This document shows positions 4,472-10,602 of a stretch of DNA of 64,000 nucleotides, in pieces; within the stretch, counting starts at the first letter, position 1; each line of letters starts with the position of its first letter. Position numbers and translations under genes: made by a program. This stretch comes from Gammaproteobacteria bacterium. Lineage in GTDB: Bacteria; Pseudomonadota; Gammaproteobacteria; Eutrophobiales; Eutrophobiaceae. The notes under the pieces were generated by a model that did not search any database, had not been told where the DNA came from, and saw only the letters and a list, made by a program, of their open reading frames with translations. The stretch lies in NCBI GenBank assembly GCA_963422205.2, contig CAXMWX010000003.1:29623-93622 (forward strand), read 5' to 3'.

Positions 4472-5752
4472 CTAGTGCTGATCTTTAGCAGGCGTATCGG
4501 CGGCCGACAGGTCAAATAGCTCTCGTGCTGCCTGTAACAGGGCCTCATCGCCGGCTGCACCGAACTCGTTCAGTTTGGTGCTGGGTCTGTGCAGCAGCTT
4601 GTTGGTGAGCGAACGGGTAACTTCCCGCAGCAACCTTTCCGGGTCTTGCCCCTGCTGCAATTTTTTCAAGGCAAGCTGTAACACCTGTTGTTGAATCTCG
4701 GTGGCCTGATCACGAACAGCGCGGATGGTCGCCACCGCTTGCAGGGAGTTTATCCAGTGCATAAACTCATCTGCCTGCCGAACAATGATCTGCTCCGCCT
4801 CCAGGGCAGCTTTCTTACGCAAGTGCAGATTCTCATCGACGAGGGTCTTCAGATCATCCACCGTATACAGATAAGCATCTTCAAGCTCCTCTACCTCGGG
4901 TTCAATATCGCGCGGCACTGCTATATCGACGATAAACATGGGGCAATGTTTACGTCTCTTCAGTGCCGTCTCAATCGCACCTTTACCCAGGACGGGCAGC
5001 GGGCTGGCGGTACCGCTGATAATCACGTCAACCTCATCCAAGTATCTGGGGATATCGTGCAGCGTGATGGCAACAGCCCCGTACTGTGCTGCCAGCACCT
5101 GCGAGCGTTCCAGCGTGCGGTTGGCAATGATCATTTTTCTTAAACCGCTGTTGTGCAGATGTTTGATGGTCAACTCGATCATCTCACCTGCACCTATAAG
5201 CAGTGCACGAGAGGCCGATAAATCACCAAAGATCTGTTGTGCCAGCCGCACGGCCGCATAGGCGACCGAGACCGGATGCTCACTGATGCTGGTATGGCTG
5301 CGAATCTGCTTGGCGACTTTGAATGAATATTGAAACAGCCGGCCCAGCAGCTTGCCGATGCTGCCGGTCTGCATGGCAACTTCATAAGCCTGCTTTAACT
5401 GCCCTAAGACCTGTGGCTCCCCCACCACCAGCGAATCCAGGCCGCTGGCCACCCGTAATATATGTTTGACCGCATGATCGTCCGGGTGCTGGTAGATAAA
5501 TTGCGCCAGTTCCTCTGGCTGATAGCCATGAAAATCCGAGAACCAGTGCAGCGGCCAATCGCTGTGATTAGCCGCCACATCACAATAGATTTCGGTACGG
5601 TTGCAGGTGGATAAAATAGCGGCCTCTTGTACAATGTTATCCTGCGTTAGCTCGCCCAATGCCGCTGGCAGCACCTGACTGGGAAACGTGACCTTTTCAC
5701 GGATCTCAAGCGGTGCCGTGTTATGGTTTAACCCTAAAGCTAATAAAGTCAT
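4472..5752 (-). CDS. hemA: Glutamyl-tRNA reductase
   Basis: N-terminal LALGLNHNTAPLEIREK...STCNRTEIY active-site Cys motif, 426 aa, upstream of prfA. Confidence 0.96.
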   Translation of the reverse strand: MTLLALGLNHNTAPLEIREKVTFPSQVLPAALGELTQDNIVQEAAILSTCNRTEIYCDVAANHSDWPLHWFSDFHGYQPEELAQFIYQHPDDHAVKHILRVASGLDSLVVGEPQVLGQLKQAYEVAMQTGSIGKLLGRLFQYSFKVAKQIRSHTSISEHPVSVAYAAVRLAQQIFGDLSASRALLIGAGEMIELTIKHLHNSGLRKMIIANRTLERSQVLAAQYGAVAITLHDIPRYLDEVDVIISGTASPLPVLGKGAIETALKRRKHCPMFIVDIAVPRDIEPEVEELEDAYLYTVDDLKTLVDENLHLRKKAALEAEQIIVRQADEFMHWINSLQAVATIRAVRDQATEIQQQVLQLALKKLQQGQDPERLLREVTRSLTNKLLHRPSTKLNEFGAAGDEALLQAARELFDLSAADTPAKDQH

Positions 5753-6006
5753 TGTACTTGGGCTGCCAGGGACAGCGTATCGGCAATAGCGGTATTTGCA
5801 TGTGCTATTTTAGCAGCTGATTGTCGGTGAATCTGCATAATGAAACAAGCCGTTTTAGCGGGTATAATACAGACTACTATGCCGATAAATAAAACGAAAT
5901 TCCGTCTCTTTCACATAAAGCCGGCGTTGACCTGGCTGGCCGGTGTGCTTGCCGTTTGCATCAAAAGGCCATGCGTTGACCGCATCTGGTCTCCCATGCT
6001 GCATGT

Positions 6007-6022
6007 CCCCCCCCCCCCCCCC
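6007..6022. repeat. Homopolymeric C16 (G16 on the minus strand) tract in the hemA / glycosyltransferase divergent intergenic region
   Basis: Counted directly: 6001 gcatgt + 16 c + gaaaatcg. The tract ends 39 nt before the ATG at 6062. Confidence 0.95.
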
Positions 6023-6061
6023 GAAAATCGGTGATAGCGGCGATAAATCACAACAGCAAAG

Positions 6062-6910
6062 ATGCCGCAAATCGCGCTATTCGTTATTAACCTAAAGAGA
6101 TGCGCCGAGCGCCGGGCCCACATGGAAGACCTGCTTGGCCGAATGGGCCTGCACTATGAGTTTATCGAGGCGGTCGATGGCAATACGGTAAGCGAGAGTG
6201 CATACCTTGAAATGCGGCAGAGCAGCATCGACTGGGCAAGAAAATACTCTCGCAAGCCGCTCAGCAGGGGCGAGGTTGGCTGTCTGCTCAGTCATTTGCA
6301 AGCCTATGAAAAAATCCTGGCAGATAACATCGATTACGCCTGCATCATGGAAGATGATGTGGTGATCCATCACCCGGACAACCTGCGCTGGGTCTTGCAA
6401 GCAGAGCACCTGTCGGCCTTGAATGAGCGCACGCCTTTTGATCTTATTTATCTGTATCTGGGTTTTCAACGTTTCAAGCGCTTCAATCGTTGGCGCCAGG
6501 CACTGTTCCCCCATGTGACCGATGCCGATTTGTTTTCCAGATGGCCGAAGATAAAAGCCAAACCCGGGCTGTATTTGAGCAAACCCTGCCATAATTTCTG
6601 GGGGGCGGTTGCTTATCTGGTCAATCGAGATGCCTGTAGTGCGCTGTTGCAGCAAGGGCGGGCTGTACACCGGCCAGTCGATGTGCTGACAGCTTGCGCT
6701 ACATTACTTGGCCTACGGCAATACTACCTCAATCCGCTGCCGGTCGGCGTGCTGAATACCATGCCAAGCACCATTATCGATGAGGGCCGATTTTTCGAGC
6801 ACGTGAAATTTGATACATCATACTGGCGCACTGCGATTGCATTTGCATGCCAGAAGGCTGGGATCATCAGCCTGCACCACATGCTGAAAAAGCTGACACA
6901 TTACGATTAG
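6062..6910 (+). CDS. Glycosyltransferase family 25 (LPS/LOS biosynthesis, Lic2/LgtB-like)
   Basis: N-terminal FVINLKRCAERRAHME... and GEVGCLLSH...DYACIMEDDV are typical of GT25 enzymes. The gene is inserted into the conserved divergent hemA / TPR-lolB locus. Confidence 0.8.
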   Translation: MPQIALFVINLKRCAERRAHMEDLLGRMGLHYEFIEAVDGNTVSESAYLEMRQSSIDWARKYSRKPLSRGEVGCLLSHLQAYEKILADNIDYACIMEDDVVIHHPDNLRWVLQAEHLSALNERTPFDLIYLYLGFQRFKRFNRWRQALFPHVTDADLFSRWPKIKAKPGLYLSKPCHNFWGAVAYLVNRDACSALLQQGRAVHRPVDVLTACATLLGLRQYYLNPLPVGVLNTMPSTIIDEGRFFEHVKFDTSYWRTAIAFACQKAGIISLHHMLKKLTHYD

Positions 6911-7225
6911 CGGCCAGGTTGACCAGATGCAGGCATAACCGCCCTGTTCGGCCCTTGGCAGCCGTCTTGCCGAGGATGATGATTTGCCAGGCCGGTTGTC
7001 TTAAAAACATGACATCAACTGCCCCGCACCATTTAACAGGCGTGCCATTGATCTGCTTTTAAGCTACTGATATTTATATAAAAATTTATCTTATCGCCAG
7101 GCAATGACAGCGGGCGTATATCCGAGGTGCAGTTATTGAATGCGAAATTCTCTCGCAAAAACGCTACTATGCGGCATATCGTTGATATTGCCCTGCTGGT
7201 GCAGGCGGTTAAAATACTTAACAAG

Positions 7226-9031
7226 ATGATGAGAAAATCAGCCCCCATATACCGTGCTCTGCCGGTGCTCGCCCCGGTTCTTGCCTTGACCTTGGGCTTG
7301 ACTGCCTGTACCACCTTGCCCCCCGTTGATAAGCAGGCCGAGCCAGCCGCTGCCCCCGCCATGCCTGAACAGACAGCCGCCCCACAGGAAGCGAGAGAAA
7401 TTGAAGCGGCAAAAGCTGTCCAGATTGCCCCCGTCAGACCGAAGATAGAACTCAGCGAGGCACTGCTGTATGAATTGCTATTAGCTGAATTTGCCGGCCA
7501 TAACGGTGAGCTGGCTACGGCGGCTGAAACGTACCTGTCGCTGGCACAAAGTATCCAGGACCACAAGCTGGCCGAGCGCGCCACCCGCATTGCGGTCTAT
7601 GCCAGAGAAGATCAGGCGGCGGCAGAGGCCGCAACGCTATGGGCTGATCTTGACCCGCTCAACCCGGATCCTCATCAGGTGCTGGCGGTGATGGAACTGC
7701 GCCAGGGCAATATGGAAAAAACAGTCATGCACTTGCAGAGCATACTGGATTACTCGCATGGTGAGTTGGATCAGAAATTATGGATGATCGCCAACATGCT
7801 TGGCCGAGAGCGGGATGCAGAGCTGGTGCTGGATGTCATGGAAGAGTTGGTCGCCACGCATCACAGCTCAGCAGATGCCTTGTATGCTTTTGCCCATGTT
7901 GCTGCCCGTCTGGGCGATCTTGAAAGGTCAAGGCAGCTGTTCGCTGAAACGCTGGTGCTGGCTCCGGGGAACGATAATGCGGCCTTGAGCTATATCTCCG
8001 TGCTGCAAAAACTGGGCGAGGTGCAACCGGCATTGCAATGGCTTGAGCAAAGACTGGCAAACGAAGCGAGGGATAATTTCAATCTGCGTATGGCTTATGC
8101 CAGGCTGCTTGCCGAGACCAGACGCTATGATGATGCCCGCCAGCAATTTGAGTTGTTAGCCGTGCAATCGCCGGCCAATAATGAAGTGCTGTATGCCCTG
8201 GGCCTGCTGTATTTGCAATCCAACCGGCTGGATGATGCCCGGGTTTATTTTGAGCGGCTGACTGAAAAGAGCGCACAAACTGACAATGCTAACTATTATC
8301 TGGGGCGCATCAGCGAGGAGGAAAAAAATTATCCGGCGGCAAGTGGCTGGTATGAAGGCGTGCATAAAGGTGAAAACTATTTTGATGCACGAATCAGGCT
8401 GGCCTTGTTGCAGGCAAAGCTGGGCGATGTTGAAAAAGCCCGACAGGCGTTGCGTTTGATAACGACCGCCAATGAGCAGCAGATGGTTATCTTGGTGCAG
8501 GCTGAGGCTGAATTGCTGCTTGAGGAGAAGCGTTATCATGAGGCGCTGGAGGTGTATAACCGGGCCTTAACCGATAACGACAATACGGATCTGCTGTATG
8601 CCCGGGCGATGGTCGCTGAGAAGCTGGACCGGCTGGATATCGTTGAGGCCGATTTACGCCGAATCTTGGCACAGGAGCCGGATCATGCCAGTGCCTTGAA
8701 TGCGCTGGGCTATACGCTGGCAGACAGAACGGCACGCTATGACGAAGCCTATGGCCTGATCAAGCAGGCGCTGGCGCTTAATCCGGCTGATTTTTATATC
8801 CTCGACAGCATGGGCTGGGTGCTGTATCGGCTGGGCCGACTGGATGAGGCCATCACGTACTTAAAACAGGCGATGGCCTTGCGCCAAGACCCGGAAATTG
8901 CCGCCCACTTGGGCGAGGTGTTGTGGGTTAAAGGCGACAAGGAGGCCGCCCGGGCAGTGTGGGAAAGTGCCTTGAAGCTGACGCCGGACGATGCTGTGTT
9001 GCTGGATGTCATCAAGCGGTTTCAAAATTAA
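7226..9031 (+). CDS. Tetratricopeptide-repeat lipoprotein
   Basis: Signal peptide with lipobox (LALTLGLTAC) after the internal ATG at 7226, then many TPR-like helical repeats. It lies upstream of lolB as in Pseudomonas. Confidence 0.8.
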   Translation: MMRKSAPIYRALPVLAPVLALTLGLTACTTLPPVDKQAEPAAAPAMPEQTAAPQEAREIEAAKAVQIAPVRPKIELSEALLYELLLAEFAGHNGELATAAETYLSLAQSIQDHKLAERATRIAVYAREDQAAAEAATLWADLDPLNPDPHQVLAVMELRQGNMEKTVMHLQSILDYSHGELDQKLWMIANMLGRERDAELVLDVMEELVATHHSSADALYAFAHVAARLGDLERSRQLFAETLVLAPGNDNAALSYISVLQKLGEVQPALQWLEQRLANEARDNFNLRMAYARLLAETRRYDDARQQFELLAVQSPANNEVLYALGLLYLQSNRLDDARVYFERLTEKSAQTDNANYYLGRISEEEKNYPAASGWYEGVHKGENYFDARIRLALLQAKLGDVEKARQALRLITTANEQQMVILVQAEAELLLEEKRYHEALEVYNRALTDNDNTDLLYARAMVAEKLDRLDIVEADLRRILAQEPDHASALNALGYTLADRTARYDEAYGLIKQALALNPADFYILDSMGWVLYRLGRLDEAITYLKQAMALRQDPEIAAHLGEVLWVKGDKEAARAVWESALKLTPDDAVLLDVIKRFQN

Positions 9032-9730: not shown

Positions 9731-10602
9731 TCGAAGATTACTGGCCGGCACCGGCGAAGATCAATTTATTCCTGCATATCACCGGCCAGCGCGAAGATGG
9801 CTATCACTGCCTGCAAACTGTGTTTCAATTTCTCAAGCAGCATGACCGACTGTATTTCTCGCCGCGCAAGGATGGCCGGCTGACCAGGCAGGCGAACTAC
9901 TCGCCGGTTGATGAGCAGCAGGACCTGGTGATAAGAGCGGCCAGGGCCTTGCAGCAACACAGCACCTGCGGGCAGGGCGCCGATATCAGGATCGAGAAAT
10001 CATTGCCCGTGGGCGGCGGGCTGGGCGGTGGCAGCTCCAATGCCGCCACCACCTTGCATGCCTTGAATGCCCTCTGGGGCCTGGGCTTGTCGGTTGATAA
10101 GCTGGCCGGGATTGGCCTGTCTTTAGGGGCGGATGTGCCGGTATTCGTGCGGGGGCGTGCTGCCTGGGCGGAGGGCGTGGGTGAGATTTTGCGCCCGATT
10201 GCGCCGCCTGAGCGGTATTATGTGATCATCTGCCCCAACTGCCATGTGATGACAGCACAGGTCTTTGCCGATCCTGATTTGACACGTAACACACCGCCAA
10301 TCACAATATGCGACTTTCTCTCAGGCAAAGGTCATAATGACTGCGAGCCGGTTGTGCGCCGTGCCTATGCACAAGTAGACCAGGCCATGAACTGGCTGGC
10401 GCGGCGGGCCGAGGCCAGGCTCACCGGCACCGGGGCCTGTGTCTTTGCCGGTTTTAACAGCCAGCACAAGGCCGAGGAGGTACTCACCGATTTGCCGGAG
10501 AAATGGGAGGGATTTGTCACCCGGGGGCTGAATACCTCGCCTTTGCTGGAAAAGGCAGCAGGATGCCAGCACAAGACAGAGCAGATTGACGATGGGGTAT
10601 AG
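9715..10602 (+). CDS. ispE: 4-diphosphocytidyl-2-C-methyl-D-erythritol kinase
   Basis: WPAPAKINLFLHITGQREDGYH and the GHMP kinase motif PVGGGLGGGSSNAA. The 3' end overlaps the tRNA by about 10 nt. Confidence 0.95.
   Translation: MAVRVIEDYWPAPAKINLFLHITGQREDGYHCLQTVFQFLKQHDRLYFSPRKDGRLTRQANYSPVDEQQDLVIRAARALQQHSTCGQGADIRIEKSLPVGGGLGGGSSNAATTLHALNALWGLGLSVDKLAGIGLSLGADVPVFVRGRAAWAEGVGEILRPIAPPERYYVIICPNCHVMTAQVFADPDLTRNTPPITICDFLSGKGHNDCEPVVRRAYAQVDQAMNWLARRAEARLTGTGACVFAGFNSQHKAEEVLTDLPEKWEGFVTRGLNTSPLLEKAAGCQHKTEQIDDGV

What the first reader, a model, noticed from the sequence alone, without database searches (positions are those of the whole stretch)
6007..6022. 16-nt poly-C tract just upstream of a family-25 LPS/LOS glycosyltransferase: candidate phase-variation switch
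A perfect C16 run sits 39 nt upstream of the ATG of a GT25 glycosyltransferase. Homologues in that family (lic2A, lgt and lex genes of Haemophilus, Neisseria and Moraxella) are textbook simple-repeat phase-variable surface-glycan genes.

Here the tract is not in the ORF. The 64-codon ORF that reads it as PPPPP ends at 6034, and I found no tract length that fuses it to the GT25 frame. Any effect would therefore act through promoter geometry or the 5' UTR. A good TATAAT at 5863-5868 would place the tract in a leader of about 190 nt, and weaker -10-like hexamers at 6031-6047 would place it at or near a -35.

The GT25 gene itself interrupts the conserved divergent hemA / TPR-lolB arrangement, which suggests acquisition. 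On the other strand the G16 run could also fold into a G-quadruplex about 255 nt upstream of hemA. A homopolymer this long is rare in a mid-GC bacterial genome and is also a classic site of assembly error.
Basis: partly seen in the sequence, partly recalled or inferred. Interest (0 to 1): 0.6.

Follow-up and report, generated by a model that had tools for sequence, protein, structure and literature searches.

The report
Poly-C switch upstream of glycosyltransferase gene
A run of 16 C's just ahead of a cell-surface sugar-transferase gene is real, differs by one base between two samples of the same strain, and is one of about twenty such runs in this bacterium, so it is most likely a slippage-driven expression switch of a well-known kind, found here in a methylotroph-like, non-pathogen lineage.

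Summary
C16 lies at 6007-6022, 39 nt before the conserved ATG (6062) of a 282-aa GT25 glycosyltransferase. No tract length can fuse an upstream frame to that gene.

The tract is not an isolated oddity. The bacterial part of the genome (2.86 Mb, 54% GC) has 11 G/C runs of 12 or more (0.07 expected) and 21 runs of 10 or more (1.4 expected). A/T runs show no excess. These runs sit in or beside glycosyltransferases, TonB receptors, methyltransferases and pilus genes. Closed genomes of the same family carry 3-44 such tracts, mostly at the 5' ends of secreted or surface protein genes.

Two public runs of the same strain show no substitutions in about 40 kb. They differ only at long tracts, and here they read C16 and C15.

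GT25 plus the tract is an insertion. All 12 relatives examined have hemA directly divergent from the TPR gene.

The most likely reading is a hypermutable contingency tract that tunes GT25 expression, more probably from the transcribed leader than as a promoter spacer. No expression data exist, so the regulatory effect is inferred. It is a new member of a known kind and of moderate interest.

The parts
6007..6022 (+). C16 homopolymer, the hypermutable tract (G16 on the template strand of GT25)
   Evidence: Read directly. C16 in run X1 and C15 in run X2. 1e-4 runs of this length expected by chance.
6062..6910 (+). GT25-family glycosyltransferase gene, 282 aa. The true start is ATG 6062.
   Evidence: Pfam PF01755 E=3.7e-32, covering residues 6-209. 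Homologues begin MSQIDVFVINLKR / MPQIDLFVIN at the same point. The collection holds a 262-aa call from M21 (P0001), which cuts into the domain.
5840..5868 (+). Best sigma-70-like promoter, ATGAAA-17-TATAAT. It would start the GT25 mRNA near 5875 and place the tract in a leader of about 187 nt.
   Evidence: Consensus scan, 10 of 12. This is a prediction only; no transcription start was mapped.
5879..6034 (+). Unconserved 51-codon upstream ORF, extendable to ATG 5840 (64 codons). It reads the tract as poly-Pro, and tract length sets where it stops.
   Evidence: It stops 27 nt before the GT25 ATG at C13/16/19 and 29-34 nt past the ATG at other lengths. It has no homologue and no family, so it may not be translated.
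5999..6028 (+). Weak alternative promoter spanning the tract: CTGCAT, then GT plus C(n), then GAAAAT. The spacer is 17 nt at C15 and 18 nt at C16.
   Evidence: Own scan. It scores only 6 of 12 and was chosen post hoc.
6032..6046 (+). Three stop codons (TGA, TAG, TAA) in the GT25 frame between tract and ATG
   Evidence: Read directly. They exclude any translational fusion.
4472..5752 (-). hemA (glutamyl-tRNA reductase), the divergent neighbour
   Evidence: Pfam GlutR_N, Shikimate_DH and GlutR_dimer.
7127..9031 (+). TPR lipoprotein gene, followed by lolB and ispE. In all relatives it is the direct divergent neighbour of hemA.
   Evidence: Pfam TPR families. tblastn on 12 relatives' loci.

Best explanation
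The C16 run is a hypermutable simple-sequence tract, a contingency locus. It arrived together with, or arose beside, a horizontally inserted GT25 surface-glycan glycosyltransferase gene. Slipped-strand mispairing during replication changes its length by one or a few bases at high frequency, so a clonal population holds cells with different tract lengths.

The tract lies 39 nt before the start codon and cannot shift the GT25 reading frame. Its length can therefore act only on how much GT25 mRNA is made or translated.

Most likely route (about 0.3 absolute): the gene is transcribed from the strong TATAAT promoter at 5840-5868. The tract then lies in the leader as an unpaired C-rich stretch. Its length could modulate expression through RNA polymerase or Rho behaviour on the tract, or through the frame and stop position of the upstream ORF.

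Second route (about 0.2): the tract is the spacer of a weak promoter (CTGCAT...GAAAAT), as in neisserial fetA and opc.

Shown: the tract, its non-random nature, the insertion, the length difference between samples, the genome-wide and family-wide set, and the gene classes.

Inferred: in-vivo slippage as the cause of the difference, any effect on GT25, and the route.
For: (1) The tract is one of a non-random set. There are 11 G/C runs of 12 or more against 0.065 expected, and 21 runs of 10 or more against 1.4 expected. A/T runs show no excess.

(2) Other tracts lie in or next to classic contingency gene classes:
- two GT10 fucosyltransferase-like genes;
- GT4 genes, one split at G10;
- a FUT8-like gene, behind C52;
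- three TonB-dependent receptors;
- a SAM methyltransferase split at C18;
- a DNA-methylase-like gene broken at C20;
- a fimbrial usher split at G10;
- PilY1-like and Flp-pilin-like genes.

(3) Runs X1 and X2 are the same strain, with no substitutions in the locus-bearing contigs over about 40 kb. They differ only at long tracts: C16/C15 here, G18/G16, and G16/G15. The G17 and C18 tracts are heterogeneous in X2. The G15, G14 and G10 tracts are identical. At this locus both runs give one clean contig path.

(4) The trait is family-wide. 42 of 121 genomes have tracts of 12 or more. Closed genomes have 44, 22, 14 and 3. 22 of 37 tracts examined lie within about 120 nt of the 5' edge of a long ORF. 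One example is a TonB receptor with ATG, four codons, then C22 out of frame. The genes encode LRR/cadherin-like, FG-GAP and Ig-like secreted proteins, an MCP and glycan enzymes. Paralogous 5' modules carry tracts of 12-20.

(5) GT25 plus the tract is an accessory insertion. 12 of 12 relatives have hemA directly next to TPR, and only 1 of 24 family genomes sampled has a GT25 relative.

(6) Precedents exist. A G(n) tract upstream of uspA1 changes mRNA 21-fold per 1-2 bases (PMC7302503). A poly-C between -10 and -35 of fetA alters expression (PMC5320596).

(7) A 10-of-12 promoter lies upstream. The tract is predicted about 80% unpaired in the leader.
Against: - No transcript data exist (one search found no RNA runs), so neither the start site nor any length-dependent expression is shown.
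- Only assembler contigs, not reads, could be compared. X2 is shorter at every differing tract, which could be a library or assembler bias at long homopolymers.
- The reference assembly and X1 (same sample) disagree at one tract (19 against 16). This shows technical uncertainty.
- The nearest GT25 homologues (41-46% identity) have no tract upstream. No second isolate of this locus was found in any collection.
- The spanning promoter is weak (6 of 12) and shows no clear optimum with length.
- Predicted leader folding and start-site accessibility do not change with tract length.
- MutS and MutL are intact, so instability is not boosted by loss of mismatch repair.
Confidence: 0.55

Rival explanations
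1. The tract is hypermutable but functionally neutral. It would be a by-product of a lineage-wide tendency to generate and tolerate long G/C runs, or a relic of a decayed 5' coding region carried in with the GT25 cassette. Its length drifts without changing GT25 output.
For: - Leader folding and ribosome-site accessibility are insensitive to tract length.
- No convincing promoter spans the tract.
- Some other tracts lie at 3' ends or between genes with no obvious target, for example G18 after a GT4 stop, G19 between convergent genes, and C52 263 nt from the next ORF.
- The upstream ORF looks like a remnant, with a signal-peptide-like N-terminus and no homologues.
Against: - Long tracts are strongly concentrated at surface and glycan genes and at gene 5' ends in this genome and its relatives. 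Drift alone does not predict that.
- The tract sits 39 nt from the ATG, where promoters and leaders lie.
- One-base changes in comparable upstream tracts have large effects in Moraxella and Neisseria.
Confidence: 0.25
2. Promoter-spacer switch of the fetA/opc/porA type. RNA polymerase uses CTGCAT (5999-6004) and GAAAAT (6023-6028). The tract plus GT forms the 17-nt (C15) or 18-nt (C16) spacer, so single-base slippage changes promoter strength. Transcription starts near 6035, giving a leader of about 27 nt.
For: - GAAAAT abuts the tract and keeps the key A2 and T6 positions.
- The two observed lengths give spacers of 17 and 18 nt.
- The resulting leader length is typical.
- fetA poly-C tracts of C10-C14 lie between -10 and -35 and alter expression (PMC5320596).
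Against: - The match is only 6 of 12 to consensus.
- The hexamers were chosen post hoc.
- The score does not peak at any tract length.
- A much better promoter lies 139 nt upstream.
- The similar 'C(n)GAAAAAT' flanks in relatives turned out to be coding sequence for Arg/Lys-rich signal-peptide starts, not -10 boxes.
Confidence: 0.2
3. Sequencing or assembly artefact. The tract, or its length difference, is produced by homopolymer errors, and there is no biological variation.
For: - Long homopolymers are error-prone.
- The reference has G19 where X1 (same sample) has G16.
- X2 is always the shorter.
- Contigs break at C20, and in X2 at G17 and C18.
Against: - The tract is present in three assemblies.
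- At this locus each run gives a single clean path at full depth (8x and 550x), with no minor contigs listed at a 1% threshold.
- G14 and G15 tracts are identical and clean in both runs, so noise at about 15 nt is low.
- Artefacts would not place tracts at surface-gene 5' ends across many independently assembled genomes.
Confidence: 0.05
4. The G16 run on the minus strand acts on hemA, for example as a G-quadruplex or an upstream element of the hemA promoter.
For: G16 is long enough for a three-tetrad quadruplex and lies on the hemA coding strand side, 255 nt upstream.
Against: - Relatives have no such tract at this locus, and only a few hundred nt separate the hemA start from the TPR gene. 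hemA promoters therefore lie close to the gene.
- The tract came with the GT25 insertion and is much closer to GT25.
- No tool result links it to hemA.
Confidence: 0.02

Closest known systems
Moraxella catarrhalis uspA1 upstream poly-G tract
   Same: It is a G/C homopolymer a few tens of nt upstream of the start codon and outside the ORF. One- or two-base length changes alter mRNA level in a graded way, 21-fold between G10 and G12 (PMC7302503).
   Different: The target there is an adhesin, not a glycosyltransferase. Tracts are 6-12 nt, not 16. The host is a human-adapted pathogen. The effect is measured there and only inferred here.
Neisseria fetA (frpB), opc and porA promoter tracts; Bordetella fim promoter poly-C
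   Same: A poly-C/G tract in the promoter region sets expression level by slippage. For fetA, C10-C14 lies between -10 and -35 (PMC5320596). The opc, porA and fim cases are from my own knowledge and were not checked here.
   Different: In those cases the tract lies between recognisable promoter elements. Here the flanking hexamers match only 6 of 12, and a better promoter lies upstream.
Phase-variable LPS/LOS glycosyltransferase genes of host-adapted bacteria (H. influenzae lic2A/lex2, Neisseria lgt genes, H. pylori and C. jejuni poly-G/C glycosyltransferases)
   Same: The enzyme class is the same: surface-glycan transferases, several of them GT25. The logic is also the same: random on/off or level switching of a glycan epitope by a simple repeat. 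These examples are from my own knowledge. The Campylobacter phasome is in PMC6321876 and PMC8437040 (abstracts).
   Different: In those genes the repeat is almost always inside the ORF and acts by frameshift. Here it is upstream. The organism is not a known pathogen. It carries Fae, a methylotroph marker, and its reads come from samples that also hold eukaryote-like DNA.
Poly-G/C 'phasomes' of Campylobacter, Helicobacter and Neisseria
   Same: There are tens of long G/C tracts per genome, concentrated in surface, glycan, receptor and methylase genes, with some genes caught out of frame.
   Different: Tracts here are longer, commonly 14-31 nt and up to 52. The genome is 54% GC. Mismatch repair genes are present, unlike Campylobacter and Helicobacter. 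No paper in the searched library links this to methylotrophs.

Membership tests
Glycosyltransferase family 25 (Pfam PF01755 / CAZy GT25) | Sequence matches the family model above the curated threshold over most of the domain | tested here: met
   112.2 bits against a cut-off of 24, with profile positions 4-198 of 199 aligned to residues 6-209.
Glycosyltransferase family 25 (Pfam PF01755 / CAZy GT25) | Acidic DxD-type motif and conserved N-terminal beta-strand (FVINL) | tested here: met
   The sequence shows MPQIALFVINLKR at the N-terminus and IMEDDVVI near residue 100. The same N-terminus is seen in homologues. That these are the family's catalytic motifs rests on my own knowledge.
Glycosyltransferase family 25 (Pfam PF01755 / CAZy GT25) | Transferase activity on an LPS/LOS or other glycan acceptor | not testable with these tools
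   There is no NCBIfam equivalog. The nearest homologues sit in glycan clusters: with a DXD-type GT and a GalE-like epimerase gene (my reading of the sequence) in G007, and with an ABC exporter and GT2 in L033/L034.
Simple-sequence-repeat contingency (phase-variable) locus | Repeat tract long enough to be hypermutable and far beyond chance | tested here: met
   C16, with 1e-4 expected. 11 tracts of 12 or more against 0.065 expected.
Simple-sequence-repeat contingency (phase-variable) locus | Tract length differs within or between populations of one strain while the flanks are identical | tested here: met
   C16 in X1 and C15 in X2, with no other difference in 701 nt here and none in about 40 kb elsewhere. 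Caveat: these are contigs, not reads, so a technical cause is not excluded.
Simple-sequence-repeat contingency (phase-variable) locus | Associated gene belongs to a surface, glycan, receptor or modification class, and the genome holds a set of such loci | tested here: met
   The same holds for relatives.
Simple-sequence-repeat contingency (phase-variable) locus | Tract length changes gene expression, reversibly and at high frequency | not testable with these tools
   No RNA runs were found. This needs reporter fusions and colony-lineage assays.
Promoter-spacer transcriptional phase variation (fetA/opc/porA type) | Tract lies between functional -35 and -10 elements, so its length sets the spacing | tested here: inconclusive
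   The best spanning pair is CTGCAT/TGCATG with a 17-18 nt spacer and GAAAAT. It scores 6 of 12 with no optimum in length. It is below the scan threshold of 9 of 12.
Leader (5'-UTR) tract type (uspA1-like) | Tract lies downstream of the transcription start and upstream of the start codon | tested here: inconclusive
   A 10-of-12 promoter at 5840-5868 would place the start near 5875. No start site has been mapped.

The most novel reading that the evidence does not exclude
A whole family of non-pathogenic, methylotroph-type proteobacteria, this one living with a eukaryote, would run a large poly-G/C 'phasome'. Closed genomes carry 3 to 44 tracts each, of 12 to 52 nt, despite intact mismatch repair. 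These tracts would randomly switch surface adhesins, TonB receptors, fucosyl- and galactosyl-type glycan transferases and DNA methylases. The C16 before GT25 would be the transcription- or leader-level member of that set. At this locus the tract may also double as a C-rich Rho-loading site and as the poly-proline stretch of a leader ORF whose stop position it sets.
Probability: 0.4. Interest if true: 0.6.

Novelty: new member of a known kind. Interest (0 to 1): 0.4.

Why it matters
Slippage-driven phase variation is textbook biology for a handful of host-adapted pathogens. Here the same genomic signature appears in a 54%-GC, mismatch-repair-proficient bacterium that encodes Fae, a methylotroph marker. 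It also appears across many genomes of the same family. The signature includes unusually long tracts and covers glycan transferases, receptors, adhesins and methylases.

If the tracts work as switches, stochastic surface variation is a general strategy outside pathogens, for example against phages, grazers or a eukaryotic partner. It would also mean that standard short-read assemblies systematically hide it, because contigs break at the tracts.

For annotation, several 'pseudogenes' in these genomes would be phase-off genes. Tract lengths in the deposited assembly should not be taken at face value.

Tried and rejected
- **Other isolates of this locus.** Two genome-contig scans (GT25 and HemA proteins), a metagenome contigs pattern scan across the tract, and a GT25 protein scan all found nothing. 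Tract length across isolates could not be measured.
- **RNA evidence.** No RNA runs exist, so no transcription start is known.
- **Tracts at homologues.** G007's GT25 (45% identity), two metagenomic homologues (41-46%) and weaker GT25 hits in G011, G012 and G028 carry no tract of 7 or more at the gene.
- **Insertion boundaries.** They could not be defined, because the intergenic DNA does not align with the same-genus genome. GC content of the insert equals the genome's. A 26-nt imperfect inverted repeat brackets the tract plus gene but is within chance.
- **Shared 'C(n)GAAAAT' motif as a -10 box.** Rejected, because in relatives it encodes the Arg/Lys start of signal peptides.
- **Leader RNA folding.** No dependence on tract length.
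- **Upstream ORF as a conserved gene.** Rejected: no homologue and no family.
- **Loss of mismatch repair as the cause.** Rejected: MutS and MutL are intact.
- **Five G/C tracts in C7 beyond 708 kb.** Dropped from the count, because that 128-kb tail is not bacterial.
- **C20 tract.** Not informative, since contigs break there in both runs.
- **Literature.** No paper links phase variation or contingency loci to methylotrophs or Methylophilaceae.

Full report
**1. The observation**

Window 6007-6022 is exactly C16. It is flanked by ...ccatgctgcatgt and gaaaatcggtgatagcggcgataaatcacaacagcaaagATG. The ATG at 6062 opens a 282-aa ORF (6062-6910) that matches Pfam Glyco_transf_25 at 112 bits, against a cut-off of 24, over residues 6-209.

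The start at 6062 is the conserved one. Homologues begin MSQIDVFVINLKR and MPQIDLFVIN at the same position. A gene call held in the protein collection starts 20 residues later and cuts into the domain.

The 64-codon ORF 5840-6034 reads the tract as PPPPP. The GT25 frame contains TGA 6032, TAG 6035 and TAA 6044 between tract and ATG. No tract length can therefore make a fusion.

**2. The tract is one of a set**

The genome has 14 contigs and 2.99 Mb. The last 128 kb of contig C7 is not bacterial:
- It has 37% GC and 8% ORF cover, against about 90% ORF cover elsewhere.
- It contains highly repeated segments, with up to about 760,000-fold summed word depth.
- Its depth ratio between the two runs differs from the chromosome's.

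I excluded this tail. In the remaining 2.86 Mb (54% GC), G/C run counts fall by a factor of 0.21 per added base up to length 8. Beyond that there is a clear excess:

| Run length | Observed | Expected |
|---|---|---|
| 10 or more | 21 | 1.4 |
| 12 or more | 11 | 0.065 |

The 11 long runs have lengths 12, 14, 15, 16, 17, 18, 18, 19, 20, 27 and 52. A/T runs stop at 10 and show no excess.

The genes at these tracts are:
- a GT10 fucosyltransferase-like gene with an in-frame C27;
- a second GT10 gene with G17 at its 3' end;
- a FUT8/O-FucT-like gene behind C52;
- a GT4 gene split into two frames at G10;
- a GT4/GT1 gene with G18 just past its stop;
- a SAM methyltransferase split at C18;
- a DNA-methylase-like gene (FLNGGLF... 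/ GSFYTPREIV) whose two halves are in different frames at C20;
- three TonB-dependent receptors (G14 and C12G8 in the N-terminal region, G11 internal);
- a fimbrial usher split at G10;
- a PilY1-like gene (C10);
- a Flp-pilin-like gene behind G11;
- a PAS histidine-kinase promoter region (G15).

This is the usual repertoire of contingency loci.

**3. Length variation**

Two public runs, X1 (sample S1) and X2 (sample S2), come from the same study and organism label and hold the locus. Only assembler contigs are available. Over about 40 kb laid, the contigs carrying the loci show no substitutions. The only differences are at long tracts:

| Tract in reference | X1 | X2 |
|---|---|---|
| C16 (this locus) | 16 | 15, both clean single paths (depth 8 and 550) |
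| G18 | 18 | 16 |
| G19 | 16 | 15 |
| G17 | 17 | contig breaks; minor -1 and -2 forms |
| C18 | 18 | contig breaks; minor -1 and -2 forms |
| C20 | unresolved | unresolved |
| G15 | 15 | 15 |
| G14 | 14 | 14 |
| G10 | 10 | 10 |

Variation is thus confined to tracts of 16 or more, which is what slippage predicts. It is also what library or assembler noise predicts. X2 is always the shorter, and the reference disagrees with X1 at one tract. I therefore take the C16/C15 difference as probable but not proven biological variation.

**4. The insertion**

In all 12 same-family genomes examined, including the same-genus one, the TPR gene is the direct divergent neighbour of hemA. Neither GT25 nor the upstream ORF is present. 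Only 1 of 24 family genomes sampled has a GT25 relative. It shares 45% identity and sits in an operon with a MarR-like gene, a glycosyltransferase-like gene and a galE-like gene (my reading of the ORF translations), without a tract.

The only other homologues found share 41-46% identity. They lie in clusters with an ABC transporter, GT25 and GT2, also without tracts. The insert has the genome's GC content, and its boundaries cannot be aligned.

**5. The family**

A C12 pattern search hits 42 of 121 genomes of the family. Hits are strongest in closed assemblies. In fragmented assemblies, tracts appear at contig ends. Counting tract edges gives 44, 22, 14 and 3 tracts of 12 or more in four closed genomes.

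Of 37 tracts fetched, 22 lie within about 120 nt of the 5' edge of a long ORF. In one case a TonB receptor has ATG, four codons, then C22, out of frame. It would be in frame at C21 or C24. In G021, seven copies of one 5' module carry tracts of 12-20.

The downstream proteins are LRR/cadherin-like, FG-GAP and Ig-like secreted proteins, an MCP, a glycerophosphotransferase-like enzyme and a FUT8-like enzyme.

The genome encodes Fae, a methylotroph marker, and intact MutS and MutL. My guess of Methylophilaceae rests only on Fae and on a 1.0-1.5 Mb genus in the family, and it is unverified.

**6. How the focal tract could act**

It cannot act by frameshift of GT25. Two routes remain.

*(a) Leader.* The best promoter-like site of the region is ATGAAA-17-TATAAT at 5840-5868, 10 of 12. 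It has no target other than GT25. It would start the mRNA near 5875, with the tract in a 187-nt leader. There the tract is predicted about 80% unpaired. Folding and start-site accessibility do not depend on its length.

What does depend on length is the upstream ORF from ATG 5879. It stops 27 nt before the GT25 ATG at C13, C16 and C19. At other lengths, including the C15 seen in X2, it runs 29-34 nt past the ATG. This ORF is unconserved and has no visible ribosome-binding site, so its translation is doubtful. A C-rich unpaired stretch is also the kind of sequence Rho loads on. That point comes from my own knowledge and is untested.

*(b) Spacer.* CTGCAT, then GT plus C(n), then GAAAAT gives 17 nt at C15 and 18 nt at C16. 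It matches consensus in only 6 of 12 positions and shows no optimum. Similar 'C(n)GAAAAAT' flanks in relatives proved to be coding sequence.

Both routes have precedents. A G(n) tract upstream of uspA1 changes mRNA 21-fold (PMC7302503). The fetA poly-C lies between -10 and -35 (PMC5320596).

I put the overall probability of a real expression switch at about 0.55. The leader route is at about 0.3, the spacer route at about 0.2, and a neutral but hypermutable tract at about 0.25. A pure artefact is at about 0.05 and an effect on hemA at about 0.02.

**7. Novelty**

The mechanism class is known. Earlier notes of this scan list many poly-G/C tracts at glycosyltransferase genes of uncultured bacteria (unchecked leads). 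New here are the upstream position at a GT25 gene, the tract lengths, and the lineage. No paper in the searched library links phase variation to methylotrophs. This is a new member of a known kind and of moderate interest.

Noticed in passing
G000:C7:708001-836315 (outside the window): The last 128 kb of contig C7 has 37% GC and only 8% ORF cover. It is full of A/T runs and highly repeated segments, with word depth up to about 760,000. Its depth ratio between runs X1 and X2 differs from the chromosome's. It looks like eukaryotic (host?) DNA wrongly joined to a bacterial contig. Its five G/C tracts should not be counted as bacterial.
   Followed up: partly
G000:C9:69659-69710 (L013): A C52 homopolymer lies after a MoaC-like ORF (my reading of its translation; not scanned against a family library). 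It is 263 nt before a FUT8/O-FucT-like glycosyltransferase gene. This is extraordinarily long for a bacterial homopolymer. In G007 the homologous gene carries an in-frame C20 inside the ORF instead.
   Followed up: partly
window 5977-6002 and 6910-6935: An imperfect 26-nt inverted repeat (73% complementary; core TGNCNGCATCTGGTC) brackets exactly the tract plus the GT25 gene. About one such pair is expected by chance in this region, so it may mean nothing, but the position is suggestive of a cassette boundary.
   Followed up: partly
window 6062-6124: The protein collection holds this GT25 as a 262-aa product starting at M21 (ATG 6122). Homologues and the Pfam alignment show the start is ATG 6062.
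   Followed up: yes
L037, L038, L039, L043, L045, L046 (G021) and L049-L051 (G012): In relatives the same roughly 50-nt flanks recur at six or seven loci (G021) and three loci (G012), with tracts of different length (12-20 and 17-22). These may be paralogous 5' modules of surface-protein genes, or a portable tract-bearing element.
   Followed up: partly
all G/C tracts of 9 or more in G000 and relatives: There is a flank bias on the C strand. The base before the run is A in 14 of 14 tracts of G021, 3 of 3 of G012, 13 of 22 of G007 and 10 of 24 in G000 (often CTA, GTA or TTA). 'GAA' follows the run in 6 of 24 in G000. This is partly explained by coding context (Leu/Val, then Pro(n), then Arg/Lys of signal peptides) and is otherwise unexplained.
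   Followed up: partly
G000:C2:2124-2133 and 9748-9757: Two C10 tracts with identical 60-nt flanks and identical neighbouring ORFs lie 7,624 nt apart on a 16.8-kb contig. This is either a tandem duplication or an assembly repeat.
   Followed up: no
G000:C14:108-133 kb and C3:411-416 kb: Two gene clusters each hold several tracts: C18 (methyltransferase), G10 (GT4) and G17 (GT10) on C14, and G18 (beside a GT4/GT1 gene) and G19 (beside an LCM methyltransferase gene) on C3. These are possible multi-switch surface-polysaccharide loci.
   Followed up: partly
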